In this document: positions 35,488 to 57,285 of the stretch, one piece after another
How the letters are laid out: the number at the start of each line of letters is the position of its first letter
Numbering within the stretch: position 1 is the stretch's first letter
Assembly: GCA_964597275.1 (NCBI GenBank)
Contig: CAZQXS010000002.1
Coordinates: 191-64,190 of the forward strand
Reading direction: 5' to 3'
DNA length: 64,000 bases
Source: an uncultured Pseudomonadota bacterium
GTDB lineage: Bacteria; SAR324; NAC60-12
Translations under genes and position numbers: made by a program
Notes under the pieces: generated by a model
Told to the model about the DNA's origin: nothing
The model's database searches: none
Seen by the model: the letters and a program-made list of their open reading frames with translations, nothing else

Positions 35488-36219
35488 TCAGGGCAGGGGC
35501 AGCTTGGCCATGCGTCCGCCGTCCACGGTGTAGATTTGTCCAGTCACAAATGCCGCCGCGTCCGAGGCCAGCCACGCCACGAGTTCCGCGACTTCTTCAG
35601 GAGTTCCGGTGCGCCCCACCGGATGGATGCCTCCGATGTCCTTGCGAAACTGCTCCGGAGCGGGCATGGCGTTGATGAAATCCACGTTGAGTTCGGTGTC
35701 AATCCAGCCCGGTGCCACGGCGTTGCAGCGAATCCCCTCCGGGCCATGATCCACCGCAACCGCACGGGTGAGCCCATGCAACCCGGCCTTGGAGGCGCAG
35801 TAAGCTGGATGCCGGGGATTCGACCCCAGCCCCTCGATGGAGCCGATGTTGACAATCGCCCCCCGCCCGCGCAAGAGCGGGAGGGCGTGCTTGATCAGCA
35901 GGAACGGTGCCCGCAGGTTGACCGCGAGGGTGCGCTCCCAATCGGTCAGCGGCATTTCCGCCACCGTGCCTTCGAGCATCACGCCCGCATTGTTGACCAG
36001 AATGTCCAGCCGACCTGCTTGAGATTTCAGTTGGGCGATGACCGCTTCCGGCACTTCCGGATCAGCAAGGTCCGCCCGGATGGTCTCGAAGCCGTCCGCA
36101 TTCTGCCGCTGGGCGGTGAACACGCGGATGCCGTCCACCGCAAAACGCCGGGCACAGGCCAGCCCGATTCCGCTGCGACCGCCCGTCACCAGTGCCACCT
36201 TTTGCACCGACTCGCTCAT
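35488..36219 (-). CDS. short-chain dehydrogenase/reductase (SDR)
   Basis: Start at MSESVQKVALVTGGRSGIG (Met15 of ORF 35488..36261). TGxxxGxG, NNAG, catalytic YxxxK (YCASK). Confidence 0.85.
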   Translation of the reverse strand: MSESVQKVALVTGGRSGIGLACARRFAVDGIRVFTAQRQNADGFETIRADLADPEVPEAVIAQLKSQAGRLDILVNNAGVMLEGTVAEMPLTDWERTLAVNLRAPFLLIKHALPLLRGRGAIVNIGSIEGLGSNPRHPAYCASKAGLHGLTRAVAVDHGPEGIRCNAVAPGWIDTELNVDFINAMPAPEQFRKDIGGIHPVGRTGTPEEVAELVAWLASDAAAFVTGQIYTVDGGRMAKLPLP

Positions 36220-36956
36220 GCGACCGCCTTTCCGCCGTTGACCTCCACCAGTGCCCCACACATGTAGCGCGACTGCTCCGAGGCCAGAAATCGCACCACG
36301 TCGGCGATGTCCTCTGGCTCCGCGATCCGGCCCAGCGGCACTGAGGCGTTCAGTTCTGAAACGGCACGATCCGGGTCAAGTCCGCGAATCTCGAATCCCG
36401 TCCGCAGCATCGGCGTGTTGACCTCGTTGGGGCAGACGGCGTTGACCCGGATGCCCTGATGCGCATGGTCCTTGCCCAAGCACTGCGTCAAGGAGGCCAG
36501 CGCCGCCTTGGACATGCAGTAGAGCGGATGGTTCGGCCCCGGATAGACCCCCCAGCACGATGCGACGTTGACAATGGCCCCGCCACCCCGCTCGGCAAGC
36601 ATCGGAATCGCCGCCCGGCAAATGCGAAACGGCGCTTCGACATTGACGGTCACCGAAAGCTGGAAATCCTCGTCGCTGGCTTCCGTCACCGGACCACGGC
36701 GGATGATGCCCGCGTTGTTGACCACGATGTCCAGCCCGCCCAAAGCTTCCACCGCTCGCTGCGGCAGGGCATCGCAATAGTCCGGATCAGACAAATCACC
36801 CGGAAGCTTCACATCCCCGGCAATTTCCCCTGCGTGTTGGTCCGCTCCGGCGACCGCCGCACCGGACGCAGACAGGGCTTTCACAATCGCCTGCCCAATG
36901 CCGCCCGCTGCACCCGTGACCAACGCCTTCTTTCCGGACAAATCTATCAAGTCCAT
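36216..36956 (-). CDS. short-chain dehydrogenase/reductase (SDR)
   Basis: MDLIDLSGKKALVTGAAGGIG, NNAG, YCMSK. 4-bp overlap with the downstream SDR gene (tandem pair). Confidence 0.85.
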   Translation of the reverse strand: MDLIDLSGKKALVTGAAGGIGQAIVKALSASGAAVAGADQHAGEIAGDVKLPGDLSDPDYCDALPQRAVEALGGLDIVVNNAGIIRRGPVTEASDEDFQLSVTVNVEAPFRICRAAIPMLAERGGGAIVNVASCWGVYPGPNHPLYCMSKAALASLTQCLGKDHAHQGIRVNAVCPNEVNTPMLRTGFEIRGLDPDRAVSELNASVPLGRIAEPEDIADVVRFLASEQSRYMCGALVEVNGGKAVA

Positions 36957-37122
36957 CCTCTTCCTCTTTTTACCAATTCAAGCACACTTATTTCTTCTGA
37001 AAAAACACGGCTCCATCTTGATCTTTCGGATTCTCTGAGGCAAGGTGAAACGCTCTCTTTTTTGCGACGGGCGGAGAGTGCCTCCGCCCGATGCCATTCA
37101 TTCTTTCCACCACCGGACTGTC

Positions 37123-44449: not shown

Positions 44450-45485
44450 CTAGTAGAGTTCGCCCAACTGCTCTCGATAGGGTGTCAGGTCAAAGCCTTT
44501 TTCCTGAAGCCAGCCCTCATTGTAGTACGTCTCCAAGTAGCGTTCTCCGCCATCACAAATCATGGAGACGACACTGCCGTTCTCTCCGCGCTGGTTCAGT
44601 TCCGAGATGAGTTGGAAGGCCGCATAGACGTTGGTTCCGGTGGAGCCGCCGCATTTGCGGTTCAGGAGCTTTTCCAGAAAATGGATCGTGGCATAGGCGG
44701 CGGCATCCGGGACCTTGATCATCCGGTCAATGACCGAGGGGAGGAAGGAAGGCTCCACACGAGGCCGACCAATGCCCTCGATGTTGGAGGCTTTCCAGAA
44801 AGTCAGAGTGGAGTCTCCTGTTTGGAAAGCGTCATAAAACACCGAATTCTGAGGGTCCGGAACACAAAGCCGAGTCTGACGGCGCTTGTAGCGGAGGTAG
44901 CAGCCAATCGTGGCGGACGTTCCGCCCGTGCCCGCGCTGATCACGATCCAAGAGGGTTCGGCAAACCGTTCGCGCTGCATCTGCGTGAAGATGGACTCGG
45001 CGATGTTGTTGTTGCCCCGCCAGTCCGTCGCCCGTTCGGCAAAGGTGAACTGGTCCATGTAGTGTCCGTTTTGCGCTTTTGCCAACCTCGCGGCCTCCGA
45101 GTAGATGTCCTTGGCCTCCACAAAGTGGCACTGCCCATCATAAAAGTTGATCTGATCAATCTTCTCCTGCGAGGTGCCTTTGGGCATGACCGCGATGAAG
45201 GGTAAGCCGAAGTCTTGCGAAGTAGGCTTCGGAAACCGCCGTGCTGCCCGAAGAGGATTCGATGATCGGGGTGCCCTCGGAAATCAAGCCGTTGCAGAGT
45301 CCGTAGAGGAACAAGGAGCGGGCGAGGCGGTGCTTGAGGCTCCCCGTCGGATGGGTGGATTCATCCTTCAGGTAGAGGTCAACCTACTTGGCCGAGGGCA
45401 AGTCCACCCAGATGAGGTGGGTGTCCGACGAGCGTTGGAAATCCGCTTCAATCGTGGTGATCGCTTGGTTGACCCAATCTCTCAT
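44450..45485 (-). pseudogene. fold-type II PLP-dependent enzyme (Trp-synthase-beta superfamily, cysteine-synthase/threonine-dehydratase-like), disrupted by in-frame TAG and a frameshift
   Basis: Manual minus-strand translation from ATG at 45485: [67 protein letters not shown]...[21 protein letters not shown]-Lys motif SLKHR. Then a frame change near 45190 into ORF 44450..45187 ([12 protein letters not shown]...GGTSATIG...). Confidence 0.5.
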
Positions 45486-45490: not shown

Positions 45491-46123
45491 TCACTTTGTC
45501 CCGAAAATCCGGTCTCCGGCATCGCCGAGTCCGGGAAGGATGTAGGCGTGGTCGTTGAGCTTGTCGTCGAGGGCTGCCGCATAGACAGGCACATCGGGAT
45601 GCTCCTCGTTAAAATGCCGCACACCTTCCGGGGCGGCGAGCAGGCAGACGAAGCGGATGGAGGTCGCACCGCTTTCCTTGAGCCGGGAAACGGCGGCGGC
45701 TGAGGAATGTCCGGTGGCCAGCATCGGGTCCAGCACGATCACGAGCCGCTCCTCCACGGGATCAGGAAGCTTGAGATAGTACTCCACTGCCGCCAGCGTT
45801 TCCGGATCGCGGTAGAGGCCGATGTGCCCCACACGGGCGGAAGGGATCATGGCCAAGAAACCGTCCAGCAATCCCATTCCGGCCCGCAGGATCGGCACGA
45901 GGCAGAGCTTCTTGCCGCCCAAAAACGGTGCGTTCATCTTCTGCAACGGCGTTTCGATCTCCTCGTACTTCAACGGCAAATCCTTGGTCACCTCATAGGC
46001 CAGCAGCATTCCGACCTCGCGGACGAGATCGCGGAAGCCCTTGGTGGAGGTGTCCTTGATGCGCATCAGCGAGAGCTTGTGCTGCACGAGTGGGTGGTTG
46101 ATGTGAGTAAACTTTTCAGACAT
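45491..46123 (-). CDS. upp: uracil phosphoribosyltransferase
   Basis: Start at [21 protein letters not shown] (Met38 of ORF 45491..46234). Canonical Upp motifs ([16 protein letters not shown]). Confidence 0.85.
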
Positions 46124-46151
46124 GGAATTCTCCTGAACGGGTGAGCAAAAA

Positions 46152-47402
46152 TCAGAACACGGTGCCGTCGCTGGCAATTTGGATTGGCGGCGCACCGTCC
46201 GGACGTTTGGTGTGAGCAAGGGCGCGTCCGGCACTCCAGGTGCCGCCTTGCAGAATGCGGCTCAGCGGCAACGCTTCCGGAGTGCGCTTCAACTCGGCGC
46301 GAACACCTTGGGCGATTTCATCGAGCAGGCAAACGGTCAGCGCCCGCCACTCGACAATCACCTCCGAATCCACCGCATGAGTGGACTTCAGAACCTCTGA
46401 ATGCTTGGGTTCCAGCACCCCAAGGTCCACGAACAGCCCGCCATTGCGATACTCTGGAAGTCCGGTGAGTGCGTCCAAGTCCACAATGCGCAGGCCCGAT
46501 TCCTCCAGCGGCTCCACCAGCGAGTACGCCAGCCACTGCGAAAGCTTGTGAAACGGAATCAAGCCGTCGGTGAGGCCATCGGCCTGCACCACCGGATGCC
46601 GCCAAACATCGCCGAGCGGCTGTCCGTCCATTTCCAGACGTGAGGGCCAGATGCGGCTGAAGCAGTCCAGCAACGCACGCAAGATGGCCGCTGCCGGAAG
46701 CGAATGGGAGCCGTCCTCATTTGGAGTGGCTTCGCCCCAAAACCAGTCGGCCAAATCGCCGATGCGGGCTGGAGCGCCACCAAATTGGCTGGGGCGGGTG
46801 GTCAGCCCCTCGCCAAGTTTCCGGAGCAGTTCCGCCCGTGCCTCCAAGCCCACCAGCGGGTTGTCGTCCGTAACCTGAAACCCCTCCGCCAGCTTTTCGG
46901 TGCGGAAGTTTCGGAGTCCTTCGGCATCCGCCTGAAAAGGCCTGCCCGGATTGCTGGAAAACGCACCATCGGCGAACAGGTAGAAGCTGGCAAGGGCAAG
47001 TCCTTCGGAGCGTCCGTGGGTGCGACGGTCCAGAGGGTTCTGAAACCACCAATCGGCTCCGGCTCCGGCATCCAGCAACACGCTGGTGACGGCGAGTTCA
47101 AACTGCACGCGCAGGCGTTCGCGGGCATCGGTTTCGGCACGAGGCCGCAAAACCGGAGTGGCGTGGTCCACGCCATCCACCACAAAATGCCGCCAGCGGC
47201 TGTGGTGCGGGATGTCGAGTTCGGGATAGTTCTTTCGGATTTCGGCGACCACCGTTTTCACTGCTTCGGGCAGGCGTTCCGGAACCAGCCGGAAATGCTC
47301 CAGCCGATCCGCTTGTGCCGCGTCGTACACCATTCTGCAACGTTCCCGGATCATCTCTGGAGAACGCAAGTGCGTGATGGCTGCCTCTGCGTCCATGCTC
47401 AA
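46152..47402 (-). CDS. URC4-like protein (DUF1688 family, uracil catabolism-associated)
   Basis: 416 aa. Size and conservation pattern of DUF1688/URC4. 4-bp overlap with the upstream URC1-like gene; immediately followed by upp. Confidence 0.6.
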
Positions 47403-48652
47403 AACTCTCCCAAGTCGCGTCCCGTGGTTTCTCCCAACGCGCCGGGGTCGATGGTTTCGGCAGTGAAGTAGCCCGCCGCTTTTTTTGCGTCCATTTCTAC
47501 CTTCGCATCGTCCGGAATCTGGTCGTCTGGAATCGCCACGCGCTCGCCGACTGTGATGCCCTGCCCAGCGATGGCGTCGTATTTCATGTTGCTCATCGAA
47601 ACGAGATGGTCAATGTGGGTGATCCCCAGCCAGTGCAGCACGTCTGGCATGAGCTGCTGAAAGCGCATGTCCTGCACTCCCGCGATGCACTCGGTGCGCT
47701 CAAAGTAGGTTTCGGCGCGGTCCCCGCCCTCCTGCCGCTTGCGGGCGTTGTACACGAGAAACTTCGTGACCTCGCCCAAGGCGCGGCCTTCCTTGCGGAA
47801 GTACGCGATCACGCCCGCGCCTCCCTGCTGGGCGGTTTCCACACAGACCTCGATGCCGTGGATGAGGTAGGGGCGGCAGGTGCAGATGTCCGAGCCGAAC
47901 ACGTCCGAGCCGTTGCATTCGTCGTGAACGCGGCAAGCGAGCTTGCGCTTGGAATCGGTGATCGCCTCCGGATCGCCCACGATGTACACCGTGATGCTGC
48001 CAATCGGCGGAAGAAACACATGGTGGTCCGGTCGGGTGACAAGTTCCGGAAACATGCCCCCGGTTTGCTCAAAAAGACTGCGGCGCAGTTGCGACTCGTC
48101 AATGCCAAAGCGCTTGGCCACGCCCGGAAGATGCCAGACCGGTTCGACCGCAACCTTGGTCACGGCGACCTCACCGGACTCCAGCAGGAAGGTTCCGTCC
48201 GGCTCCAGACGCCCTTCCTTGACGGCCATCTGGAATTCTGGAAGGTGCAGCCGCGCCTTCGTCACCGCAATCGTTGGGCGGACATCCAAGCCGGAGTTCA
48301 ACTCATCCGCAAACACTTCTCCAACGAGGTGACCAAAGGGATCGAGCGATACAATCTTTTCCGGGTCGCTCCACTGCGGATACGGCCCGAATGGTACAAT
48401 CGGCGTGGTGTCGGTGAGGTCCGGCACGTGGTCCGCATCCAGTTGCCCGGAGGCCACCGCAAGGGCGCGGTAGATGGCATACGAACCGGAGTGGGTGCCG
48501 ATGACGTTGCGCTTGGCCGGGGTTTGCACCGAACCGATCACCGGGCCTCGGATTTTGGGATCGGCCTCCCCCCACTGGATTTTCGGGCCGCGCTGTTCCT
48601 TACGCCCCGGATGGGAGGTCAATACGATGTGTTTGGGTTTGTCCATGCTCAT
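47399..48652 (-). CDS. URC1-like GTP cyclohydrolase II paralogue (RibA family)
   Basis: RibA zinc motif CNGSDVFGSDICTC with an N-terminal extension (about 418 aa versus about 200 for RibA). Start at MSMDKPKHIVL (ATG at 48652). Confidence 0.7.
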   Translation of the reverse strand: MSMDKPKHIVLTSHPGRKEQRGPKIQWGEADPKIRGPVIGSVQTPAKRNVIGTHSGSYAIYRALAVASGQLDADHVPDLTDTTPIVPFGPYPQWSDPEKIVSLDPFGHLVGEVFADELNSGLDVRPTIAVTKARLHLPEFQMAVKEGRLEPDGTFLLESGEVAVTKVAVEPVWHLPGVAKRFGIDESQLRRSLFEQTGGMFPELVTRPDHHVFLPPIGSITVYIVGDPEAITDSKRKLACRVHDECNGSDVFGSDICTCRPYLIHGIEVCVETAQQGGAGVIAYFRKEGRALGEVTKFLVYNARKRQEGGDRAETYFERTECIAGVQDMRFQQLMPDVLHWLGITHIDHLVSMSNMKYDAIAGQGITVGERVAIPDDQIPDDAKVEMDAKKAAGYFTAETIDPGALGETTGRDLGEF

Positions 48653-48817
48653 TGCTGGTTGAGGGAGTTCCCGTGCCGAAGCGCGACAACAAATCACTAC
48701 CATACCCAAAAATTGCCTAGGAAGGCAACCCGGAAAAGCAGATTGGGTGCGGAAAATTTCAGAATGCCGCCGTCGGCAAAGTCCGGCGGGCTTTGGAACG
48801 GAAGGCGATTTGGAAGC

Positions 48818-50446
48818 TCACGCCCCCTTGGATTCCTGCCGAACTTCGGAGGCCAGCCGCCCCAAGGCGTAGTCGTCAAGGTCGGCGAATTTCATCCACT
48901 CGGCCAACCGGGGCTGCACGCGCCGCACTTCCCGAAAGAGTTCCTGCGCGATGTGGCGGTAGCCCGGATGTCCTTGGGGGGTGCTGCGCAACTCCACGAG
49001 CCATGTCAGCGCCCGCAGGTTGACGTGCATGGACCAGCGGATGCGATAGGCCATCGGCACCACATACTGGGCTTCGTGCGGAAAATCCTCTGCAATCGTC
49101 TCAAACGCTTCCGCCGCCTGCGCCATTGCATCATGGTAGGGCTGGGAGAGCTTGGTGTCTTCCAGTTCCGCTGGGGTGTCGTAGCCGAAGCGTGTGGTCA
49201 GCGGCTGCCGCCATTGCGTGAGCATCCGGTGGCGGTGCAGGTCGCGGTACATGCCGTAGTCGCCCAGCAGGTCGAAGGTGTAGAACACGCGCTCCAACGC
49301 CCGTGGTGGCTTGTGGCGGCGGTGTTCGCGCAGGGCAATGCTTTCCCGGACAAGGCGCTCGCGCTCAGCGTCGGGCAGTTCCCGTACCTGCGCCTGCACC
49401 TGCGGAAGCGGCAATGCGGTGTGTTCGTACAGCAAGGCCGCAATCAGTTTTTCCTCGGCATCCGCATCCCATTCCACCAAACGCACTTCCCCGGAAGATC
49501 CGGGCGGGATCGCAAGCGGCTCGGCACTAGCTGACTCAAGCTGTGCCGCCACCGACCGAATGTGCTGCTGCAAGGCTCCCGTGAAGTCCGCATAGCTTTG
49601 GAAGTGCCGATGCTCCGGATGGGCGCGGCGGATGAAGGACGGGGCGACCTTCGCCAGTTCCTCCCACGCGGTTTGGGCGATGTCCTGAAACTCCTGAAGC
49701 GGTTCAATGCGAAGCCGGGCGATGAGGCTTTCAAAGAACCGTCCGTTACCGAACACACCCATGTTCGTGAGGGTTGCGGCGGGTAGCAGCCCTCGGATGA
49801 GGTCGAAGCCCAAGGCGCGGACTGAGCGTTCGTAAGCGGCCTCCGGCGTGTCCGGATCGCGGGGCAGGCGGCTGCGGACGTACTCGCGGACGGGTTCGTT
49901 GAGTTGAACGTAGGTGTCGAACAGCGTGCGGCAGGCGCTCAGGTAGCGTTCCCGATGCTCCGAATTGAGCAGACGCGGCTCCTTGTAAAAGCGATAATCG
50001 CCCGCAACTTTCTGTCCGAACGAAACATAGCGCGTGGACTTCTCCAGCGGCGAGCCGCCGATGCGGGCGTCTTCCAGCGTTTTGGTCGCCAGAATCGAGA
50101 CTTCCTCCACCGCCAGATGTGCCCCGCCGAGTTCGCCGATGGAGTCGTCCCCGTAGCCATCGAGAATGCGGTCGTAGAACGACTGGGCGCGTCCGACTGC
50201 CAGTGCGGAGGCTTGGGCGGAACTTCCCGTGCCGCCCTGAATCGCGGAAAATTCAGCGGCCTCGTCATCAATGAACTCCCGAAGCAACAGCCGCCGCAAC
50301 CCCAGCGTGGAGCGGGAGTAGCGGGAGAAGAGTGCGCCCTTGATCACCTCCGGGAGGTTCGTGAGCGCAAAGATGGAGCGATCGGTGTTGGTGACGTAGG
50401 GCGCGAGCCGCGCTTGTTCGTCTGGAGTGAAGGACTCGCCAGTCAA
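48818..50446 (-). CDS. thyX: FAD-dependent thymidylate synthase ThyX, long (about 540 aa) two-lobed form
   Basis: ThyX-type RHR motif region (HRHRML..), about 2x canonical ThyX length. First codon is TTG (complement of 50444-50446); there is no in-frame ATG near the N-terminus. Confidence 0.55.
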   Translation of the reverse strand: MTGESFTPDEQARLAPYVTNTDRSIFALTNLPEVIKGALFSRYSRSTLGLRRLLLREFIDDEAAEFSAIQGGTGSSAQASALAVGRAQSFYDRILDGYGDDSIGELGGAHLAVEEVSILATKTLEDARIGGSPLEKSTRYVSFGQKVAGDYRFYKEPRLLNSEHRERYLSACRTLFDTYVQLNEPVREYVRSRLPRDPDTPEAAYERSVRALGFDLIRGLLPAATLTNMGVFGNGRFFESLIARLRIEPLQEFQDIAQTAWEELAKVAPSFIRRAHPEHRHFQSYADFTGALQQHIRSVAAQLESASAEPLAIPPGSSGEVRLVEWDADAEEKLIAALLYEHTALPLPQVQAQVRELPDAERERLVRESIALREHRRHKPPRALERVFYTFDLLGDYGMYRDLHRHRMLTQWRQPLTTRFGYDTPAELEDTKLSQPYHDAMAQAAEAFETIAEDFPHEAQYVVPMAYRIRWSMHVNLRALTWLVELRSTPQGHPGYRHIAQELFREVRRVQPRLAEWMKFADLDDYALGRLASEVRQESKGA

Positions 50447-50498: not shown

Positions 50499-51095
50499 TT
50501 ATGCCGCAGGGAGGCCGACCGAATTGGGCAGTGCCTCGGCTTGGGACTTGGGTTTTGGGAGGTCCGCATCCAAGAACTTAGTGACTTCGTTGGGCTGGTA
50601 CTCGTCCTTGAGCAAATCACGGGTGAAGTCGAAGGTGGTGCGGGACGCATAGGCCATCGAGATCACGCCCGTGTCCATCCGGATCGCCTCCTTCGGGCAC
50701 GCCTCCACGCAAAGCCCACAAAAGACGCAGCGCAGCTCGTCAATGTCGAAGCGCACCGGGTACTTCTCCACCGAAAGATCCGGGTGATCGCCCGCGTCAA
50801 TGTGGATGCACTTGGCCGGACACACGGTCTCACACATGTAGCAGGCCACGCACTTGAGGAAGCCATCCTCCCGGCGCGTGAGCCGATGCCGTCCGCGCCA
50901 GCGCATCGACACGGGCCGCTGCTCTTCCGGATACTGTACCGTCACCACGTCCTTCGCCCCAAAGAGGTTGCGGAAGAAGTGGCTGACGGTCAGCCGGAAT
51001 CCAGTGAAGATCGCCGGCAGATAGAGGGACTCCTTGAATCCGTCCACCCGCTGCATCTGTTTGACTTTGAGTTCCATCGAAAATCCTCCAATCAA
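50499..51095 (-). CDS. nuoI: NADH-quinone oxidoreductase subunit I
   Basis: Two 4Fe-4S ferredoxin motifs (CVACYMCETVCP, CVFCGLCVEACP). Start may be Met1, Met7 (51077) or Met14. Confidence 0.85.
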   Translation of the reverse strand: MIGGFSMELKVKQMQRVDGFKESLYLPAIFTGFRLTVSHFFRNLFGAKDVVTVQYPEEQRPVSMRWRGRHRLTRREDGFLKCVACYMCETVCPAKCIHIDAGDHPDLSVEKYPVRFDIDELRCVFCGLCVEACPKEAIRMDTGVISMAYASRTTFDFTRDLLKDEYQPNEVTKFLDADLPKPKSQAEALPNSVGLPAA

Positions 51096-51109
51096 TTGTT
51101 GATGCTCAA

Positions 51110-51229
51110 TTAATGTGTCGCTTCGGCAGGTTGGCTCTTCGAGGACTTGGCTGCATGCCTTAGGGCATCAAACATAACCAACACAATCCCCCCCAGAAAA
51201 ACCAGAAACGAAACAATCAGCCATTCCAT
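51110..51229 (-). CDS. possible 39-aa single-TM membrane peptide between nuoH and nuoI
   Basis: MEWLIVSFLVFLGGIVLVMFDALRHAAKSSKSQPAEATH. AT-rich, no homology assignable. Confidence 0.2.
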   Translation of the reverse strand: MEWLIVSFLVFLGGIVLVMFDALRHAAKSSKSQPAEATH

Positions 51230-51307
51230 TTTACAAATCCTCCAATTCATCAATTTTTCGATAGGCCGCTTTTCGGATTTCGACATTCTGTGTTCACGAT
51301 ACAAGCC

Positions 51308-52381
51308 TTAGACAAAGATCAGGATGACCGCTGCCGTGGCCACGGTGTTCGCCAGCGAGAGCGGCAGCAGCTTTTTCCAGCCGAGCGCCATCGTCTGGTC
51401 AAAGCGGAACTTCGGCACGGTCCAGCGCAGTTGAATCTGGAACCAGCAACAGAAGACCACGAACACGGTGAACTTGGTGAACTGAAGCACCCGCACCAGC
51501 CACTCCGGGGCACTTTCCCAAAGATGGAGCCACGGCACATGGTAGCCGCCAAAGAAGAGCGTGGTGATCAGCGCGGCAACCCCAACGATGGCCACGTACT
51601 CCGCCAGCATGAACGCCGACCAGCGCATTCCCGAATACTCCAAGAAGTAGCCCGCGACAATTTCGGATTCGCCCTCCGGTGCGTCAAACGGCGCCCGCTT
51701 GGTTTCCGCCACCAAGGCCGTGGTGAAGAGCAGGAAGCCGAGCGGCTGGGTCAGGATTCCCCACTTGGGAATCAGGCTTCCGAACCAGTAGGCGTTTTGG
51801 CCGTCCACGATTTCACTGACACGGGTGGAGCCATAGACCATGAAGATGCCCATCAGCGCAAGCCCCATGAAGACCTCGTAGGAAATCATCTGCGCCGAAG
51901 CGCGGGTGCCGCCGAGCAGGGCGAACTTGCTGTTGGAACTGGCCCCGGCGAGGACTGCGCCATAAACACTCAGGGAGGTGATGGCGAAGATGAAGAGCAG
52001 TCCGGGCTCGATGTCCGTGATCTGAAAGGTGAAGCCTCCGAGGGGTGCAGCAATGGGCACAATCGCAAAAACCGAAACCCCGGCGATCAGCCCAAAGAAC
52101 GGCGCAATCAGGTAGAGGAAGCGATCCGAGCCTTCCGGCATCGTGTCTTCCTTAAAGATGGATTTGAGGCCATCAGCGGCAATGTGCGCCAGCCCACGCC
52201 CCCGGAAGCTGCCAACGTTCGCCCGATTCGGGCCGACCCGATCCTGCACCATCGCGCTCCACTTGCGCTCCATCAGCGTCATCAAAGTGCCGAGCGGCAT
52301 GGCGAACAGCATGATCATGAAAACAATCTTCAGGATCGTCTGGACCAGCGGAATCGAGAGAATTTCAAGCAGTAGGTTCAT
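51308..52381 (-). CDS. nuoH: NADH-quinone oxidoreductase subunit H
   Basis: 357 aa, 8 TM; ...VQDRVGPNRA... and other NuoH/ND1 signature regions. Confidence 0.9.
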   Translation of the reverse strand: MNLLLEILSIPLVQTILKIVFMIMLFAMPLGTLMTLMERKWSAMVQDRVGPNRANVGSFRGRGLAHIAADGLKSIFKEDTMPEGSDRFLYLIAPFFGLIAGVSVFAIVPIAAPLGGFTFQITDIEPGLLFIFAITSLSVYGAVLAGASSNSKFALLGGTRASAQMISYEVFMGLALMGIFMVYGSTRVSEIVDGQNAYWFGSLIPKWGILTQPLGFLLFTTALVAETKRAPFDAPEGESEIVAGYFLEYSGMRWSAFMLAEYVAIVGVAALITTLFFGGYHVPWLHLWESAPEWLVRVLQFTKFTVFVVFCCWFQIQLRWTVPKFRFDQTMALGWKKLLPLSLANTVATAAVILIFV

Positions 52382-52409
52382 TTCCGTTCTCGGCCTTGCG
52401 GCAAAGGGT

Positions 52410-53018
52410 TCACACGTTGTCGAGGATTTGAAAGTGTGCTTCGGTGGGCGCTCGCATCACGCCGTTGATCGGCAGGATGTCCTGCGGGCACGCCGAAAAC
52501 GCGACCACCACATCCACCTCGGCCCGTAGCACCACATAGCTCCCCGGAGTCGAAACCGGAGCCTCCCACGCCAAGCCGCCCTCCACGGTCCACGGGATGT
52601 GCATGAAGAGGTTGAGCGGACTCGGCGTTTCCGGCTCCTTGAGGCCGAGTTCCTTCATGCCTGCGGTGAGGTTGTCGGTGCAGTTGTCGTGATACTCCGT
52701 GCAGCCGAGCAAGCCAAAGCGCGGGTTGTCACACGCCGCCATCAGGGTGTCGTGAACGCCTCCGGACGTGTCCTCCATCAAGGTGAGGATCGGGCGTCGC
52801 TGGTTGGTCACGAGCGTGTCGCCCACCTCTGGACGCAGTTTCATGTAGTAGGGACGGCTGTGTTCCATGGACATGAACTCCGACAGGTCATCGGCCCGGA
52901 AGGCCCAAGTGTCCACCACCTGCGCTCCATGCGTGTTGATGACCTTCACGCCCTGTCCGGCCTTCACCTGAGCCGCCTTGCCTCGGCGGGCGGGGATGGT
53001 GATCACTTCGTTTGACAT
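52410..53018 (-). CDS. DUF1989 ('urea carboxylase-associated') family protein, lone copy
   Basis: 202 aa; family otherwise found as tandem pairs next to urea/guanidine carboxylase (carboxyguanidine deiminase subunits). Confidence 0.55.
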   Translation of the reverse strand: MSNEVITIPARRGKAAQVKAGQGVKVINTHGAQVVDTWAFRADDLSEFMSMEHSRPYYMKLRPEVGDTLVTNQRRPILTLMEDTSGGVHDTLMAACDNPRFGLLGCTEYHDNCTDNLTAGMKELGLKEPETPSPLNLFMHIPWTVEGGLAWEAPVSTPGSYVVLRAEVDVVVAFSACPQDILPINGVMRAPTEAHFQILDNV

Positions 53019-53031
53019 TTCACTCTCTTTA

Positions 53032-53331
53032 CTAAATCGTAGGCTGAATGGCTTTGTTCGGCCAACTGTTCTCCACCGTAAACGACTGACCCAACGTTCT
53101 CAAGTGGCTGAATTCCTGCTCCCGCAGTTTTCCCCGGATTTCTTCAAAGGATTTCACCACATCCTCGGCATACAACTTTTCTCCACAATGCAGGCACACC
53201 TCCGCAGAGACTTTCATGGAAACCGTGTGTCCCCCACCGCTCAGGAGCTTTTCGACCTGCTTGCTCTGCAAGTCACCACCACAGACAGGGCATTTTTCAA
53301 ATGGCCTCATTTTTTCATTCTCATTTTCCAA
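53032..53331 (-). CDS. YgiT-type zinc-finger protein (MqsA-N-like; putative antitoxin)
   Basis: CPVCGG...CLHCGE zinc ribbon. 99 aa, low GC. Overlaps the upstream DUF4258 gene by 25 bp. Confidence 0.6.
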   Translation of the reverse strand: MENENEKMRPFEKCPVCGGDLQSKQVEKLLSGGGHTVSMKVSAEVCLHCGEKLYAEDVVKSFEEIRGKLREQEFSHLRTLGQSFTVENSWPNKAIQPTI

Positions 53332-53621
53332 TCAACCCACCGATCAGGATCTGGCCGATAGACCGTGATCAAAACAGCCCACGAGTTTTCTTGATTGTAG
53401 GCCCAAACACTATGGATTGGCTCCCCTGTAAAATTCTTACCCAGAATCAGACAGCTTGGATAAGGTTTGTCGGTTGGGTAATCCTCAATGATTTCGCCTT
53501 GAATCACCGAAGTGTAAATTTCTTCGTAGGTCAGATTGTCATCAACCGCCTCCTCGTCTGCGTGATTAGTGATTCTTACTTGAGTCTCCCGGATTGCCTG
53601 AATGATACTCTCTATCTCCAT
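53307..53621 (-). CDS. DUF4258-domain protein (putative toxin partner of YgiT zinc-finger protein)
   Basis: Start at MEIESIIQAIRETQVRITNHADEE (Met54 of ORF 53307..53780). 104 aa, low GC, matching DUF4258 length and pattern. Confidence 0.5.
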   Translation of the reverse strand: MEIESIIQAIRETQVRITNHADEEAVDDNLTYEEIYTSVIQGEIIEDYPTDKPYPSCLILGKNFTGEPIHSVWAYNQENSWAVLITVYRPDPDRWVDWKMRMKK

Positions 53622-53640
53622 CCTTACCGATCCAGTTCCC

Positions 53641-54603
53641 CTACGGGGTCTGTCCGCCAAGAATCCCTGCCAGCTTGTCCGAATCCACGTTGCCCCCGGA
53701 CACGACACAAACCACGTTTCCGCCTCCCGCTTGGCCGGAGAGTGCGGCCGCAACCGGGGCGGCTCCTGCCCCCTCAGCAATCACGTGATTCCGTTCGGCG
53801 ACAATCCTGAGCGCGGAAGTCACTTCCTCCAGCGAAGTCACCAAGGAGCCATCCAGCAACCGACTCGCCAGCGGGAACATCTCCGGGAAGACCCTGGGAG
53901 AACTGATGCCATCCACCAAGCTAGGCGTGTGCTCGACTTCCGTCGGCTCGCCCGCAGCCAATGATGCGGCAAACGGCGCTCCCGTCTCCACCTCAGAGGC
54001 GAATAACTTCACCTCCGGTTTGAGCGAGCGCAGGGTGGAGGCAATACCGCAACTGAGACCACCGCCTCCATACGGGGTGATGATGGTCTCCACCTCGGGC
54101 AAATCCTCAAGGATTTCAAGGCCAATCGTGCCATTGCCCGCCATCACGGTCGGATTGCTGAACGGGTGAACAAAGAACCCCTCCATCCCTTCGAGCCTGT
54201 GAGTCTGGGCGACCTGCATCAATTCGGCGAACGAAGTTTTGACAACCTCCCCTCCGAGCCGTGCAATTGCGGCCAGCTTTGACTCGGGAGCGCGTTCAGG
54301 CACGACGACGGTGCAGGGTACCCCCAAGTGCTTGGCGCACCAAGCAACCGCTTGTCCGGTATTCCCAGGACTGACCGTCCACAATCCTTGACTGAGCTGT
54401 TCCTTGCTGGCCAAGCTCACGGTGTTAAACACCCCCCGCAGCTTGAAGGAGCCTACGGGCTGCAAATTCTCCAGCTTCAGGTAGATTCGGGCAGGCGCAT
54501 CCTCCACGTTCAACCGCACCAGTGGAGTGCGAACCGCCACGCCAGCAATCCTGCTCTGTGCCGCTCGCACCTCCTCAATGCGAATCGGTTCATGAGGCTT
54601 CAC
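53641..54603 (-). CDS. PLP-dependent threonine/serine dehydratase family enzyme (fold-type II)
   Basis: LKLENLQPVGSFKLRG (PLP-Lys motif), GGGGL glycine loop; 320 aa. Confidence 0.8.
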   Translation of the reverse strand: MKPHEPIRIEEVRAAQSRIAGVAVRTPLVRLNVEDAPARIYLKLENLQPVGSFKLRGVFNTVSLASKEQLSQGLWTVSPGNTGQAVAWCAKHLGVPCTVVVPERAPESKLAAIARLGGEVVKTSFAELMQVAQTHRLEGMEGFFVHPFSNPTVMAGNGTIGLEILEDLPEVETIITPYGGGGLSCGIASTLRSLKPEVKLFASEVETGAPFAASLAAGEPTEVEHTPSLVDGISSPRVFPEMFPLASRLLDGSLVTSLEEVTSALRIVAERNHVIAEGAGAAPVAAALSGQAGGGNVVCVVSGGNVDSDKLAGILGGQTP

Positions 54604-54773
54604 AAAGTACCTTCCTTACCGTTGAAGTTAAGCGGGCAATTGTGAAAACAATTTGATCATCATCCAGATAATCGCAACCACCCCGGCAAAAGTAGCTCCC
54701 AATATCCACTGGATCAAAGTGATTCGTCCTTCAATACCGATCATGTCCGCTTTTGCGACAAGCACGGTCTCCC

Positions 54774-56003
54774 TCACCGATCCAACTCTCCTCCGATCAT
54801 GTTGATGGAGCCGAAGATCGGCACGATGTCGGCGATGTAGTGTCCAACGGTCATGTGCTTCATGGCCTGGACGTAGTTGAAGCACGGGGGCCGCAACCGG
54901 ACCCGCACGGGGTCGCCGGAGCCGTCCGAGACAACATAGAAGCCGACCTCGCCATTGCCGCCCTCGACGGCTGTGTAGGCTTCCCCTTCCGGAGGCTGGT
55001 GGCCTTCCATGACCATCTTGAAGTGCTCGATCAGCCCCTCGATGTTGCCGTAAACCTCCTTCTTGTCCGGATAATGCACCCAGCGCTGGTCGGTCATGAT
55101 CGGGCCGTAGGGCATCTTGTCGGCGGCCTGCTCGATGATGGAAATGCTCTGGCGCATTTCCTCCATGCGCACGAGATAGCGGTCGAAGCAGTCCCCGACG
55201 GTGCCCACCGGAATCTCGAAATCAAGCTCGTCATAAACCGAGTGGGCATCGGAACGCCGCACGTCAAACGGCACCCCGCAGGCTCGCAACATCGGCCCGG
55301 AGAAACCGAAGGAAAGCGCGTCTTCCTTGGAGATCGGCCCCACGTCCTTGACGCGGTCAATGAAAATCTTGTTCTTCGAGAGCAGCTTGTCGCATTCGTC
55401 AAGGATGTCCTTCACCTTATCGAGCCGTTCCTGCAAGTCGTCAAGGAAACCGTCCGGAAGGTCGGTGGCGTTGCCGCCGAAGCGTGTCCAGTTGGTCGTC
55501 AGCCGTGCCCCGCTGACTTGCTCGACGAGTTCCCACAGGTACTCGCGGGCCTTGATGAACCAGAGGAAGAAGGTGAAGGCTCCCACTTCCATCGCCGCCG
55601 CGCCCACGCAGGTGAGGTGGTCGGTGATCCGGGAGATCTCGCCCATGATGACGCGGGTGAACTCAGCACGGCGCGGCACCTCGACCCCGTAGAGCTTTTC
55701 CACCGCCATCGAGTAGCCGATGTTGTTGAGCAGAGGCGAGACGTAGTTGAGGCGGTCGGTGTAGGGAATCACCTGAATCCACTTCGAGTTCTCGGACTCC
55801 TTCTCGAAGCCCCGATGCAGGTAGCCGATTTCCGGAACCATGTCCACGATCATCTCGCCATCCACATAGGTGGTGAAGCGCACGATTCCGTGCATGGCGG
55901 GATGGGCCGGCCCCACCTCAATCGCCATGATCGAGGTGTCCTCGTCCGCTTCGATAGGAATTCCGGAAAGCCGGGGTTCTGCGAGTGCGGTGTCCATGCT
56001 CAT
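54774..56003 (-). CDS. nuoD: NADH-quinone oxidoreductase subunit D
   Basis: 409 aa; [NiFe]-hydrogenase large-subunit-like fold with NuoD motifs. 4-bp overlap with nuoC. Confidence 0.9.
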   Translation of the reverse strand: MSMDTALAEPRLSGIPIEADEDTSIMAIEVGPAHPAMHGIVRFTTYVDGEMIVDMVPEIGYLHRGFEKESENSKWIQVIPYTDRLNYVSPLLNNIGYSMAVEKLYGVEVPRRAEFTRVIMGEISRITDHLTCVGAAAMEVGAFTFFLWFIKAREYLWELVEQVSGARLTTNWTRFGGNATDLPDGFLDDLQERLDKVKDILDECDKLLSKNKIFIDRVKDVGPISKEDALSFGFSGPMLRACGVPFDVRRSDAHSVYDELDFEIPVGTVGDCFDRYLVRMEEMRQSISIIEQAADKMPYGPIMTDQRWVHYPDKKEVYGNIEGLIEHFKMVMEGHQPPEGEAYTAVEGGNGEVGFYVVSDGSGDPVRVRLRPPCFNYVQAMKHMTVGHYIADIVPIFGSINMIGGELDR

Positions 56004-56548
56004 GCCCTTCCGTACTGGTTGCGTTCGTCAATTTCTCGCAGTTCGATGATCGGCTGCTGGCGGTCCATGGGATAGTCCTTGCGGAGGGGGTGCCCTTCGA
56101 ACTGGTCGTACATGAGCAGGCGCGTGAGGTTGGGGTGTCCGGTGAACTCGATGCCGAACATGTCCCAGCACTCGCGCTCGTACCAGTTGACGACCTCCCA
56201 AAGCTCGTGGATCGAATCCACCCGGCAGTCGTCTTCCGGCAGCGGGGTCTTGACGCGCAGGCGGTGGCCGTGGGTGAGCGACTTGAAGTGATAGACCACT
56301 TCAAAGCGCGGATCGCGGCCTTGTTCAAAATAATCGACGGCGGTGAGGTCCACCATCAGCTCGAACTTGCAACGCGGGTCGTCGCGCAGGAACTGGCAGA
56401 CGGGCACAATCGCGTCGCGCTTGATGCGGACGGTCTCATCGCCCCGGTGGTTGTGGAAGTCAAGCAGCGTGTCTGGAAACTGCTGCTGGAGCAGGGCGGT
56501 GAGCATCCCCGGGGCTTCAGATTCCGAAGCGGTAGTGGTCTTAGTCAT
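56000..56548 (-). CDS. nuoC: NADH-quinone oxidoreductase subunit C
   Basis: 182 aa; NuoC/30-kDa subunit motif ...ERECWDMFGI.F.GHP.LRR.L. Confidence 0.85.
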   Translation of the reverse strand: MTKTTTASESEAPGMLTALLQQQFPDTLLDFHNHRGDETVRIKRDAIVPVCQFLRDDPRCKFELMVDLTAVDYFEQGRDPRFEVVYHFKSLTHGHRLRVKTPLPEDDCRVDSIHELWEVVNWYERECWDMFGIEFTGHPNLTRLLMYDQFEGHPLRKDYPMDRQQPIIELREIDERNQYGRA

Positions 56549-56580
56549 GGGCGTGGGTCAGGACGGATTTTACCGCAGGG

Positions 56581-57285
56581 TCAGGACTCTTCGCGGAGTG
56601 CCTCTTTCTTGCGCTGATCGGCAGGGGAGTCGTAGCCCATGTGCGGGCGCACGACCACGTTTTCATCGGAGTACACATAGCCGGGCTTGGTGCTGCGGTT
56701 GCTCTTGGGGTTCTGCATGTTCTCCAGCACCTGCTTGTCCGAAATCTGGAAGTAGCGGCTGAGTTGATCCAGCTTTTGCTCGCGGTGCCGAGCCATCTCC
56801 GGGTTGAGCATCCCGCTCTTGACGGTCGGCCCGTCGTTCTGGATGCGGTGCTGCAACTCCATCAGGCCATCCAGCACCGCTTCCGGACGCGGCGGGCAGC
56901 CCGCGATGTACACGTCCACTGGAATCAGGCGGTCAATGCCCTGAAGCACCGAATAGTTCTGGTAGAAGCCGCCGGAGGACGCACACGCTCCAAAGGCCAT
57001 CACCCACTTCGGCTCCGCCATCTGGTCGTAGATCGTCTTCAGCACCGGAGCCATCTTGTGCGTGATCGTGCCCACCACCCAGAGGACATCCGACTGCCTA
57101 GGCGAAAAACGCGGGATTTCCGCGCCAAAGCGCGAGATGTCGTAGTGGGAACACGCCGCCGCCATGTACTCCATCCCGCAACATGCGGTCACGAAGGGGT
57201 ACTGGAACAGCGAGAATTTGCGCGACCAGTTGACCACGTTGTCGAAGGTGGTGGTCAGAAAGTCACCGTAGTTTGCAGCAGCCAT
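56581..57285 (-). CDS. nuoB: NADH-quinone oxidoreductase subunit B (with C-terminal extension)
   Basis: CCGMEYM...GACASSGG...GCPPRPE cluster N2 ligands; about 60-aa extra C-terminal tail. Confidence 0.9.

What the first reader, a model, noticed from the sequence alone, without database searches (positions are those of the whole stretch)
45491..48652. Bacterial URC-type pyrimidine catabolism cluster: URC1-like GTP-cyclohydrolase-II paralogue, URC4/DUF1688 and upp
Three co-directional, overlapping or tightly spaced genes are present. They encode an extended RibA-family protein that retains the CxxG…CxC zinc motif (URC1-like), a DUF1688 protein (URC4-like) and uracil phosphoribosyltransferase (URC6/FUR1 equivalent). 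This is exactly the gene triad of the poorly understood URC uracil-degradation pathway first defined genetically in the yeast Lachancea kluyveri. Bacterial versions are bioinformatically predicted but biochemically uncharacterised. The URC4/DUF1688 reaction is unknown.
Basis: partly seen in the sequence, partly recalled or inferred. Interest (0 to 1): 0.65.

Follow-up and report, generated by a model that had tools for sequence, protein, structure and literature searches.

The report
Bacterial uracil-breakdown (URC) operon, SAR324
Three adjacent genes in an uncultured marine SAR324 bacterium form the known URC uracil-breakdown operon; its one step of unknown chemistry (URC4/DUF1688) turns out to share its fold and key residues with the nucleotide-cleaving enzyme Qng1, which gives a testable reaction.

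Summary
On the minus strand lie a two-domain RibA-family gene (48652..47399, 417 aa), a DUF1688/URC4 gene (47396..46152, 414 aa) and upp (46123..45491, 210 aa). They are 2 nt and 28 nt apart. All three match their families with very strong profile scores.

The interpretation as a URC-type pyrimidine catabolism cluster is supported. The same gene order recurs next to DUF1688 in 74 of 80 (cyclohydrolase) and 62 of 80 (upp) genomes from several bacterial phyla.

The claim that the bacterial versions are biochemically uncharacterised is out of date for the first gene. It is 66% identical to crystal structures 7EEV and 7EJ3, whose titles read "UTP cyclohydrolase" (Zhang et al., ACS Catal 2021).

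This cluster is therefore a new member of a known kind, from a SAR324 bacterium.

The added value concerns DUF1688:
- A profile-profile comparison agrees (89.6% probability).
- The helix-hairpin-helix Lys, the catalytic acid (Asp replaced by Glu), the Tyr, the Trp, two of the five phosphate-contact positions (both Arg here) and an aromatic C-terminal residue are all conserved.

I infer that DUF1688 hydrolyses N-ribosylurea 5'-phosphate to urea and ribose 5-phosphate. This has not been tested experimentally.

The parts
47399..48652 (-). urcA: URC1-type UTP cyclohydrolase, 417 aa. It has an N-terminal GTP_CH_N domain and a C-terminal GTP cyclohydrolase II-like zinc domain (C246, C257, C259; Y301, D328 and R330 are equivalent to RibA Y105, D126 and R128).
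   Evidence: Pfam and NCBIfam matches. 66% identity over 408 aa to PDB 7EJ3/7EEV, whose titles read 'UTP cyclohydrolase'. Alignment to E. coli RibA 2BZ0.
46152..47396 (-). URC4/urg3-family gene (DUF1688), 414 aa. Inferred to be a Qng1-like N-glycosidase acting on N-ribosylurea 5'-phosphate. Candidate active-site residues are D109, K284, S292, E315, Y316, R317, W387, R391 and the C-terminal F414.
45491..46123 (-). upp: uracil phosphoribosyltransferase, 210 aa (functional equivalent of URC6/FUR1).
   Evidence: Pfam UPRTase E 8e-74. TIGR01091 275.9 bits against a cut-off of 208; NF001097 286 bits.
46130..46134 (-). AGGAG ribosome-binding site, 6 nt upstream of the upp ATG.
   Evidence: Read directly from the sequence.
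47394..47402 (-). urcA/DUF1688 junction. The TGA stop (47401-47399) is followed 2 nt later by the ATG at 47396, which indicates translational coupling.
   Evidence: Read directly from the sequence. Gene calls on public contigs give the same 2-nt spacing.
48653..48817 (-). 165-nt spacer upstream of urcA. This is the only place for an operon-specific promoter or regulator, but no element was recognised in it.
   Evidence: No sigma-70-like site and no Rfam match.
48818..50446 (-). Context: a long (542 aa) two-domain ThyX-like FAD-dependent thymidylate synthase directly upstream. The synteny is conserved in SAR324 relatives but not in other phyla.
   Evidence: Pfam Thy1, two matched stretches. Same position in relatives. 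Absent from the 80 loci of other phyla.
44450..45485 (-). Context: a disrupted Cds1-like PLP-enzyme gene that starts 5 nt after the upp stop codon. It carries an in-frame TAG at 45386-45384 and a frameshift near 45212. A terminator-like hairpin follows at 44426-44409.
   Evidence: Three-frame translation. NCBIfam Cds1 match to the C-terminal 245 aa only. The gene is called at only 245-271 aa on all six independent contigs shown. Hairpin.

Best explanation
The region is a URC-type uracil catabolism operon, urcA-urc4-upp, in a marine SAR324-cluster bacterium.

Proposed pathway:
1. Upp attaches uracil to PRPP to give UMP.
2. Housekeeping kinases convert UMP to UTP.
3. UrcA, a zinc enzyme derived from GTP cyclohydrolase II, releases pyrophosphate and hydrolytically opens the uracil ring. 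C4-C6 leave as a three-carbon acid (malonic semialdehyde, the precursor of 3-hydroxypropionate). N1, C2 and N3 remain as a urea group on ribose 5-phosphate.
4. The DUF1688/URC4 protein then cleaves the N-glycosidic bond of N-ribosylurea 5'-phosphate. This gives urea, a nitrogen source, and ribose 5-phosphate, which can be recycled to PRPP.

What is shown here: the gene identities, the conserved operon, the close homology of UrcA to a solved UTP cyclohydrolase, and the homology of DUF1688 to Qng1 with conserved catalytic, ribose-binding and phosphate-binding positions.

What is inferred: the exact UrcA products (by analogy with GTP cyclohydrolase II and from yeast end products), the DUF1688 substrate and reaction, and the physiological role in SAR324.
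For: Gene identities.

UrcA:
- It is 66% identical to PDB 7EEV and 7EJ3, titled 'UTP cyclohydrolase'.
- The zinc triad and the equivalents of RibA Y105, D126 and R128 are kept.
- Scores against bona fide RibA models are far below their cut-offs (57 against 148 bits; 42.5 against 206 bits).

Operon conservation:
- Of the 80 best DUF1688 loci from Alpha- and Gammaproteobacteria, Cyanobacteria, Myxococcota and Bdellovibrionota, 74 have urcA next to DUF1688, upstream and on the same strand in all but one.
- 62 have upp downstream.
- No other gene is conserved next to the triad.

Yeast counterparts:
- urg1, urg2 and urg3 are clustered and induced by uracil (PMC2174524).
- URC1 and URC6 yield ribosylurea and 3-hydroxypropionate, and URC4 converts ribosylurea to urea (PMC7530994).

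DUF1688 fold and homology:
- The AF2 model has pLDDT 93.5 and pTM 0.91.
- In Foldseek only Qng1 entries are significant (E 1.4e-9).
- hhalign of the DUF1688 profile against a Qng1 profile gives 89.6% probability, E 1.9e-6, over 303 columns. A control against an unrelated profile gives 0.14%.
- There are recurrent weak Pfam Q_salvage hits: 9 of 48 members, best E 1.5e-4.

Residue mapping onto the Qng1 roles described in PMC9881137, written Qng1 to DUF1688:
- D69 to D109
- K199 to K284
- D231 to E315
- Y232 to Y316
- K233 to R317
- W302 to W387
- Q306 to R391
All of these are 96-100% conserved among 150 diverse representatives.

In Qng1 the C-terminal Tyr and its carboxylate are part of the active site. 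DUF1688 proteins end in ...DGT[VLI]F, with Phe as the last residue in 145 of 150.

Against: - No experiment was done. The DUF1688 reaction rests on fold and residue homology only.
- The catalytic Asp of Qng1 and HhH-GPD enzymes is a Glu in DUF1688.
- Qng1 D207 is a Ser in DUF1688, and Qng1 R80 has no aligned basic residue.
- The match to Pfam Q_salvage is below the gathering score (15.9 against 25 bits).
- The hhalign probability is 89.6%, not above 95%.
- The published yeast intermediate is the nucleoside ribosylurea, not its phosphate.
- I could not read the UTP cyclohydrolase paper, so the UrcA products are not verified here.
- The window holds no urease or urea amidolyase, so the fate of the urea in this organism is unknown.
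- The rest of the genome, including a separate ribA/ribBA, could not be inspected.
Confidence: 0.7

Rival explanations
1. DUF1688 is a glycosidase of the same kind but acts on the unphosphorylated nucleoside ribosylurea, as the yeast literature writes the step. Alternatively it acts on an earlier ring-opened intermediate such as N-ribosyl-ureidoacrylate 5'-phosphate.
For: Yeast models state that 'URC4 degrades ribosylurea to urea' (PMC7530994). Qng1 also has weak activity on the nucleoside (PMC9881137). Qng1 R80, one of its phosphate ligands, has no aligned basic residue in DUF1688.
Against: Two phosphate-contact positions of Qng1 (K233 and Q306) are near-invariant Arg in DUF1688 (R317 and R391). 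By analogy with GTP cyclohydrolase II, which is established knowledge, the cyclohydrolase product should be a 5'-monophosphate. A nucleoside that accumulates in mutants can arise through phosphatases.
Confidence: 0.2
2. The RibA-family gene is an ordinary GTP cyclohydrolase II for riboflavin synthesis, as every public database names it, and its position next to upp and DUF1688 is incidental.
For: All source names for its homologues read 'GTP cyclohydrolase II'. NCBIfam PRK07198 is labelled an equivalog of GTP cyclohydrolase II. The catalytic residues of RibA are kept.
Against: It is 66% identical to structures titled 'UTP cyclohydrolase'. Scores against true RibA and RibBA models are 4 to 15 times below their cut-offs. 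It carries an extra 190-residue GTP_CH_N domain. It is linked to DUF1688 in 74 of 80 loci, and no other gene, rib genes included, is conserved beside the triad.
Confidence: 0.03
3. The triad is real, but DUF1688 does something other than hydrolyse a glycosidic bond. It could be a group transferase or a lyase, or it could be a non-catalytic partner that channels the UrcA product.
Confidence: 0.07
4. The operon does not serve nitrogen acquisition in SAR324. Instead it controls the pyrimidine pool or removes excess or damaged uracil nucleotides.
For: It lies next to thyX, another pyrimidine-metabolism gene, in SAR324 lineages. No urea-utilisation genes and no nucleobase transporter lie within the window.
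Against: In yeasts the pathway supports growth on uracil as nitrogen source, and the genes are induced by uracil. In other phyla ABC-transporter genes, a cytosine-deaminase-like amidohydrolase and a ureidoglycolate-lyase-like gene recur near the triad in a minority of loci. The window is otherwise rich in organic-nitrogen catabolism genes.
Confidence: 0.1

Closest known systems
URC pathway of Lachancea kluyveri and Schizosaccharomyces pombe (URC1/urg1, URC4/urg3, URC6/urg2; Andersen et al. 2008, reference 13 in PMC12507026)
   Same: The same three protein families are present. They are clustered, as in S. pombe where they are also induced by uracil. The end products expected are the same: urea and a C3 acid.
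   Different: Here the genes form a bacterial operon with translational coupling. The UPRTase is of the bacterial Upp type (TIGR01091). The window holds no urea amidolyase (URC3,5) and no regulator (URC2), and no reductase (URC8) lies beside the triad; the nearest short-chain dehydrogenase gene (36216..36956) is about 9 kb away and unlinked.
Bacterial UTP cyclohydrolase UrcA (PDB 7EEV, 7EJ3; Zhang et al., ACS Catal 2021;11:8895)
   Same: 66% identity over 408 residues and the same two-domain architecture. The zinc triad and catalytic Tyr and Arg are conserved.
   Different: It comes from a different organism (SAR324). Its activity has not been tested. Public databases still call it GTP cyclohydrolase II.
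Qng1/QNG1 (DUF2419), queuosine 5'-phosphate N-glycosylase (PDB 7U07, 7UGK; PMC9881137)
   Different: Sequence identity is only 13-17%. The catalytic Asp is a Glu. The base-specific Asp298 and Asp207 are not kept. DUF1688 has about 100 extra residues. The match is below the Pfam Q_salvage threshold. The genomic context is pyrimidine catabolism, not queuine salvage.
Endonuclease III (Nth), the urea-DNA glycosylase of the HhH-GPD superfamily
   Different: It acts on DNA, has an Fe-S cluster and AP-lyase activity, and is much more distant in structure than Qng1.
GTP cyclohydrolase II (RibA, PDB 2BZ0)
   Same: The catalytic domain fold, the zinc Cys triad and the Tyr and Arg residues are shared with UrcA.
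   Different: Identity is only about 17%. RibA lacks the GTP_CH_N domain. The window protein fails all RibA and RibBA model cut-offs. RibA is linked to rib genes, not to upp and DUF1688.

Membership tests
URC uracil catabolism gene set | URC1-type cyclohydrolase (GTP_CH_N plus GTP cyclohydrolase II domain) | tested here: met
   Pfam E 1.1e-84 and 5.2e-14; PRK07198 735 bits.
URC uracil catabolism gene set | URC4 (DUF1688) gene present and linked to the cyclohydrolase | tested here: met
   Pfam E 1.3e-144. It lies 2 nt downstream of urcA. The two genes are linked in 74 of 80 loci from other phyla.
URC uracil catabolism gene set | Uracil phosphoribosyltransferase (URC6 equivalent) | tested here: met
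   TIGR01091 275.9 bits against a cut-off of 208. It lies downstream of DUF1688 in 62 of 80 loci.
URC uracil catabolism gene set | A route for urea utilisation (URC3,5 urea amidolyase, or urease) | tested here: not met
   None was found among the window's genes. A DUF1989 protein at 52410..53018 scores far below the cut-offs of the urea-amidolyase-associated protein models (103 against 285 bits). The rest of the genome could not be inspected.
URC uracil catabolism gene set | Growth on uracil as nitrogen source, or induction by uracil | not testable with these tools
   The organism is uncultured and known only from metagenome contigs.
UTP cyclohydrolase (UrcA) | Close homology to the structurally characterised enzyme | tested here: met
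   66% identity over 408 aa. Foldseek TM 0.83-0.87 to 7EJ3/7EEV, titled 'UTP cyclohydrolase'; the query model had only moderate confidence (pLDDT 64).
UTP cyclohydrolase (UrcA) | Zinc Cys triad and catalytic Tyr and Arg of the GTP cyclohydrolase II core | tested here: met
   C246, C257, C259, Y301 and R330 align with RibA C54, C65, C67, Y105 and R128. All are invariant in 28 homologues.
UTP cyclohydrolase (UrcA) | UTP as substrate, and identity of the products | not testable with these tools
   The paper (ACS Catal 2021;11:8895) is not in the held library. Only its title and the PDB titles were seen.
Bona fide RibA/RibBA (riboflavin synthesis) | Score above the curated cut-offs of the RibA and RibBA models | tested here: not met
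   NF001591 57 against 148 bits; TIGR00505 42.5 against 206 bits; the RibBA models score 32-53 bits against cut-offs of 486-764 bits.
Qng1 / Q_salvage (DUF2419) family | Match to Pfam PF10343 above the gathering score | tested here: not met
   15.9 bits against 25. The best family member reaches 22.5 bits. DUF1688 is a sister family, not a member.
Qng1-like branch of the HhH-GPD glycosylase fold | Overall fold | tested here: met
Qng1-like branch of the HhH-GPD glycosylase fold | HhH-motif Lys that positions the ribose (StQng1 K199) | tested here: met
   It aligns with K284, which is conserved in 145 of 151 sequences.
Qng1-like branch of the HhH-GPD glycosylase fold | Catalytic Asp after the HhH motif (StQng1 D231) | tested here: inconclusive
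   The aligned residue is Glu315 (Glu in 145 of 151 sequences, Asp in 3). The acid is retained but one methylene longer. Its position in three dimensions could not be inspected, because no coordinates were available.
Qng1-like branch of the HhH-GPD glycosylase fold | C-terminal aromatic residue whose carboxylate completes the active site (StQng1 Y323) | tested here: met
   DUF1688 proteins end in ...DGT[VLI]F. The last residue is Phe in 145 of 150 representatives. This equivalence rests on position in the sequence only.
Qng1-like branch of the HhH-GPD glycosylase fold | 5'-phosphate pocket (StQng1 R80, K233, Q306, Y232) | tested here: inconclusive
   K233 maps to R317, Q306 to R391 and Y232 to Y316, all near-invariant. 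R80 aligns with a non-conserved Asp.

The most novel reading that the evidence does not exclude
DUF1688/URC4 has been the enzyme of unknown chemistry in the URC pathway since 2008. The most novel reading is that it is a divergent homologue of the queuosine-5'-phosphate N-glycosylase Qng1, and that it is the missing N-ribosylurea-5'-phosphate N-glycosidase, producing urea and ribose 5-phosphate.

If so, the URC route is a closed ribose-phosphate carrier cycle:
1. ribose 5-phosphate to PRPP
2. PRPP plus uracil to UMP, then UTP
3. UTP to ribosylurea 5'-phosphate
4. ribosylurea 5'-phosphate back to ribose 5-phosphate, releasing urea

I found no paper in the searchable library that links URC4 or DUF1688 to Qng1. 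NCBI's 2026 models still give the protein no functional name.
Probability: 0.6. Interest if true: 0.65.

Novelty: new member of a known kind. Interest (0 to 1): 0.45.

Why it matters
The cluster itself is ordinary. It is a widespread, already annotated bacterial operon, and its first enzyme has been characterised and crystallised.

Three things make it useful.

1. It places the URC route in SAR324, an abundant uncultured deep-ocean lineage. The identical protein occurs on 22 contigs from marine metagenomes. This suggests that pyrimidines serve as a nitrogen source there.

2. It exposes a systematic mis-annotation. Every public homologue of the UTP cyclohydrolase is still named 'GTP cyclohydrolase II', which can corrupt predictions of the riboflavin pathway.

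3. The DUF1688-Qng1 relationship turns the open URC4 question into a simple assay with a defined substrate, defined products and specific mutants. It would also show that the Qng1 branch of the DNA-glycosylase fold has been recruited at least twice for free-nucleotide metabolism.

Tried and rejected
- **Sequence searches of the PDB with DUF1688.** The single sequence and the 48-sequence profile gave nothing meaningful. The link to Qng1 appeared only through fold and profile-profile comparison.
- **AlphaFold database fold library (afdb50).** It was not available.
- **Regulatory elements.** I found no sigma-70-like promoter, no convincing terminator within the triad and no Rfam family; the only hit was a chance snoRNA match at E 0.028.
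- **Other conserved neighbours of the triad.** Clustering all ORFs of the 80 loci gave only the three genes, antisense ORF artefacts and lineage-specific genes. These include transporters, a cytosine-deaminase-like amidohydrolase, a ureidoglycolate-lyase-like gene, a TPR protein and a cyclase. ThyX, the PLP gene, the DAO oxidoreductase and DUF1989 are not linked to the triad outside SAR324, so I do not count them as pathway parts.
- **Domain fusions of DUF1688.** The longer family members carry no extra Pfam domain.
- **Literature on URC4.** Searches for a published URC4 function or a UrcA product description found nothing. The ACS Catal paper is not held.
- **AF2 model of UrcA.** It reached only moderate confidence (pLDDT 64) and was used only to retrieve the PDB entry titles.
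- **Assembly error as the cause of the PLP-gene disruption.** I rejected this because the truncated gene recurs on independent contigs.


Full report
**Observation**

- The first runs 48652..47399 (417 aa). It combines the Pfam GTP_CH_N domain (E 1.1e-84) with a GTP cyclohydrolase II domain (E 5.2e-14), and matches NCBIfam PRK07198 at 735 bits.
- The second runs 47396..46152 (414 aa). It matches Pfam DUF1688 end to end (E 1.3e-144).
- The third runs 46123..45491 (210 aa). It is uracil phosphoribosyltransferase (TIGR01091, 275.9 bits against a cut-off of 208).

The stop codon of the first gene lies 2 nt before the ATG of the second. The third follows after 28 nt with an AGGAG ribosome-binding site. 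Codon-position GC is that of coding sequence for the first two genes (upp was not scored). Gene calls on public contigs give the same products.

**Origin**

The window proteins are identical, or at least 90% identical, to proteins of metagenome-assembled genomes named 'SAR324 cluster bacterium'. The identical DUF1688 protein is on record on 22 contigs from ENA, JGI and Logan assemblies of marine samples. All six places shown have the same order: nuoH-nuoI-thyX-urcA-DUF1688-upp-truncated PLP gene-DAO oxidoreductase. No close relative is among the GTDB species representatives; the best DUF1688 match there is 54% identical.

**The RibA-like gene**

It is not a riboflavin enzyme.
- Its scores against RibA and RibBA models are 4 to 15 times below their curated cut-offs.
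- It is 66% identical over 408 residues to PDB chains 7EJ3 and 7EEV.
- Those entries are titled 'UTP cyclohydrolase' and 'Structure of UTP cyclohydrolase', released in 2022 and 2021.
[quoted passage not shown] A later paper cites this work as the reference for the URC pathway (PMC12507026). I could not read the paper itself.
- The catalytic core of GTP cyclohydrolase II is kept. C246, C257 and C259 align with the zinc ligands C54, C65 and C67 of E. coli RibA. Y301, D328 and R330 align with Y105, D126 and R128. All are invariant in 28 homologues.

All public names of its homologues still read 'GTP cyclohydrolase II'.

**Conservation of the triad**

A scan of one genome per bacterial species found more than 580 DUF1688 loci. 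Among the 80 best:
- 74 have the cyclohydrolase next to DUF1688, upstream and on the same strand in all but one.
- 62 have upp immediately downstream.
- They come from Alpha- and Gammaproteobacteria, Cyanobacteria, Myxococcota and Bdellovibrionota.

Clustering of all ORFs in these loci showed no other conserved neighbour. Only lineage-specific genes appeared: ABC-transporter components, a cytosine-deaminase-like amidohydrolase, a ureidoglycolate-lyase-like protein, a TPR protein and a cyclase. The long ThyX, the PLP gene, the DAO oxidoreductase and DUF1989, which flank the triad in the window, are not linked to it elsewhere. ThyX does keep its position in an 86%-identical SAR324 relative.

In fission yeast the three counterparts (urg1, urg3, urg2) are neighbours and are the genes most strongly induced by uracil (PMC2174524). 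In Lachancea kluyveri, URC1 and URC6 convert uracil to ribosylurea and 3-hydroxypropionate, and URC4 converts ribosylurea to urea (PMC7530994). The interpretation as a URC-type operon is therefore supported.

**DUF1688/URC4**

No solved structure matches by sequence. No NCBIfam model names it. NCBI calls it only 'URC4/urg3 family protein'.

An AlphaFold2 model built on 48 homologues is confident (mean pLDDT 93.5, pTM 0.91).
- In Foldseek only the Qng1 entries are significant (E 1.4e-9, target-normalised TM-score 0.74-0.79).

There is also sequence-level support.
- The window protein hits Pfam Q_salvage weakly (E 0.0099).
- 9 of 48 family members do so at E 0.1 or better, best 1.5e-4. No other family recurs.
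- A profile-profile comparison of 48 DUF1688 sequences with 40 Qng1 sequences gives 89.6% probability, E 1.9e-6, over 303 aligned columns.
- The same comparison against an unrelated profile gives 0.14%.

**Active-site mapping**

Qng1 hydrolyses the N-glycosidic bond of queuosine 5'-monophosphate. The residue roles below are taken from PMC9881137.

| StQng1 residue | Role in Qng1 | DUF1688 residue |
|---|---|---|
| K199 (HhH motif) | orients the ribose | K284 |
| D231 | nucleophile, or stabiliser of the oxocarbenium ion | E315 |
| Y232 | packs against the ribose | Y316 |
| K233 | contacts the 5'-phosphate | R317 |
| Q306 | contacts the 5'-phosphate | R391 |
| R80 | contacts the 5'-phosphate | no aligned basic residue |
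| W302 | stacks on the base and hydrogen-bonds the ribose ring oxygen | W387 |
| D69 | implicated in catalysis | D109 |
| D207 | implicated in catalysis | S292 |
| N72 | implicated in catalysis | not mapped |
| D298 | reads the 7-deazaguanine base | not kept |
| Y323 (C-terminal) | its carboxylate is part of the active site | F414 (C-terminal) |

Loss of the base-reading D298 is expected if the leaving group is urea.

Among 150 representatives that are at most 50% identical to one another, the mapped residues are conserved in 145-151 of 151 sequences. The last residue is Phe in 145 of 150 representatives, within a ...DGT[VLI]F end.

Cleavage of a (deoxy)ribosylurea glycosidic bond by this fold has a classical precedent. 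Endonuclease III is the urea-DNA glycosylase (references in PMC8845263).

**Mechanism proposed**

1. Upp makes UMP from uracil and PRPP. The family assignment is shown; the reaction follows from established knowledge of the family.
2. Housekeeping kinases make UTP (inferred).
3. UrcA releases pyrophosphate and opens the ring. This leaves ribosylurea 5'-phosphate and a C3 acid. The step is inferred from the GTP cyclohydrolase II mechanism, the PDB title and the yeast end products; it was not verified here.
4. DUF1688 hydrolyses ribosylurea 5'-phosphate to urea and ribose 5-phosphate. This is inferred from the Qng1 homology and from the yeast genetics that place URC4 at the step from ribosylurea to urea.

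Ribose 5-phosphate would return to PRPP, so the sugar phosphate acts as a recycled carrier.

**Weak points**

- The canonical Asp is replaced by Glu.
- The R80 equivalent is missing.
- The hhalign probability is below 95%.
- The yeast intermediate was reported as the nucleoside, not the phosphate.
- The window holds no urea-utilisation genes.
- I could not inspect the model coordinates.

**Rivals considered**

- DUF1688 acts on the nucleoside or on an earlier ring-opened intermediate (0.2).
- The operon has a role in pyrimidine-pool control rather than nitrogen acquisition (0.1).
- DUF1688 performs some chemistry other than glycosidic hydrolysis (0.07).
- The first gene is an ordinary RibA (0.03).

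**Novelty and score**

As a genomic feature this is a new member of a known kind: an annotated, widespread operon whose first enzyme is already characterised. The specific structural link between URC4/DUF1688 and Qng1 was not found in any searchable paper. It turns a question open since 2008 into a direct assay. The insight is generic to the family rather than special to this window, so I score overall interest at 0.45. For the most novel reading, I give a probability of 0.6 and an interest of 0.65 if true.

Noticed in passing
window 44450-45485 (-): A Cds1-like (L-cysteine desulfhydrase family) PLP-enzyme gene starts 5 nt after the upp stop codon. It is broken by an in-frame TAG at 45386-45384 and by a frameshift near 45212. 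On all six independent metagenome contigs shown it is called at only 245-271 aa, so this looks like a real pseudogene in the population and not an assembly error.
   Followed up: partly
window 50499-57285 (-): The nuo (complex I) genes are interrupted. nuoB, nuoC and nuoD (57285..54774) are separated from nuoH and nuoI (52381..50499) by three insertions: a PLP-dependent enzyme gene (53641-54603), a DUF4258/MqsA-like toxin-antitoxin pair (53032-53780) and a DUF1989 gene (52410-53018). No nuoE, nuoF or nuoG lies between nuoD and nuoH. In an 86%-identical relative (L082) DUF1989 also sits between nuoD and nuoH.
   Followed up: partly
window 48818-50446 (-): A long (542 aa) ThyX-like protein with two Thy1 stretches lies directly upstream of urcA. 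It scores below the TIGR02170 thyX cut-off (62 against 87.9 bits). NCBI names it FAD-dependent thymidylate synthase. Its position next to the URC genes is kept within SAR324 but not in other phyla.
   Followed up: partly
window 47399-48652 (-) and all homologues: There is a systematic annotation problem. Every public source names this family 'GTP cyclohydrolase II', and NCBIfam PRK07198 is labelled an equivalog of that enzyme. Yet the solved homologue is a UTP cyclohydrolase. The family is also unusually conserved, at about 70% identity across phyla.
   Followed up: yes
L082 7935-8354 (+): In the 86%-identical SAR324 relative, the gene that follows upp after 28 nt belongs to the OMP decarboxylase/HUMPS family (Pfam E 1.5e-26). 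It takes the place of the PLP pseudogene. It is a sugar-phosphate enzyme of unknown relation to the operon.
   Followed up: no
window 16667-18253 (+) and 37045-38670 (+): Two MttB-family (trimethylamine methyltransferase-like) genes have uninterrupted reading frames, so they are presumably non-pyrrolysine members. They lie among aminotransferase, arginase-family, Rieske oxygenase and ABC-transporter genes, which makes this an organic-nitrogen catabolism neighbourhood.
   Followed up: no
window 11501-13159 (-): A PMT_2-family glycosyltransferase gene lies in a low-GC patch: GC 0.53 against about 0.61 for the window, and GC3 0.56 against about 0.8. It may have been acquired horizontally.
   Followed up: no
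L006, L010, L020, L021, L036, L041, L067, L077 (Microcoleus and related cyanobacteria): In these loci about 1.2 kb separates urcA from DUF1688. In eight loci the gap holds a gene with an adenylate/guanylate cyclase domain (representative: L020 8892-9974).
   Followed up: no
window 5588-10952 (+): A DUF444 - SpoVR-like - PrkA-like gene set is present. This is the conserved yeaH-ycgB-yeaG type stress module, here in the reverse of its usual order.
   Followed up: no
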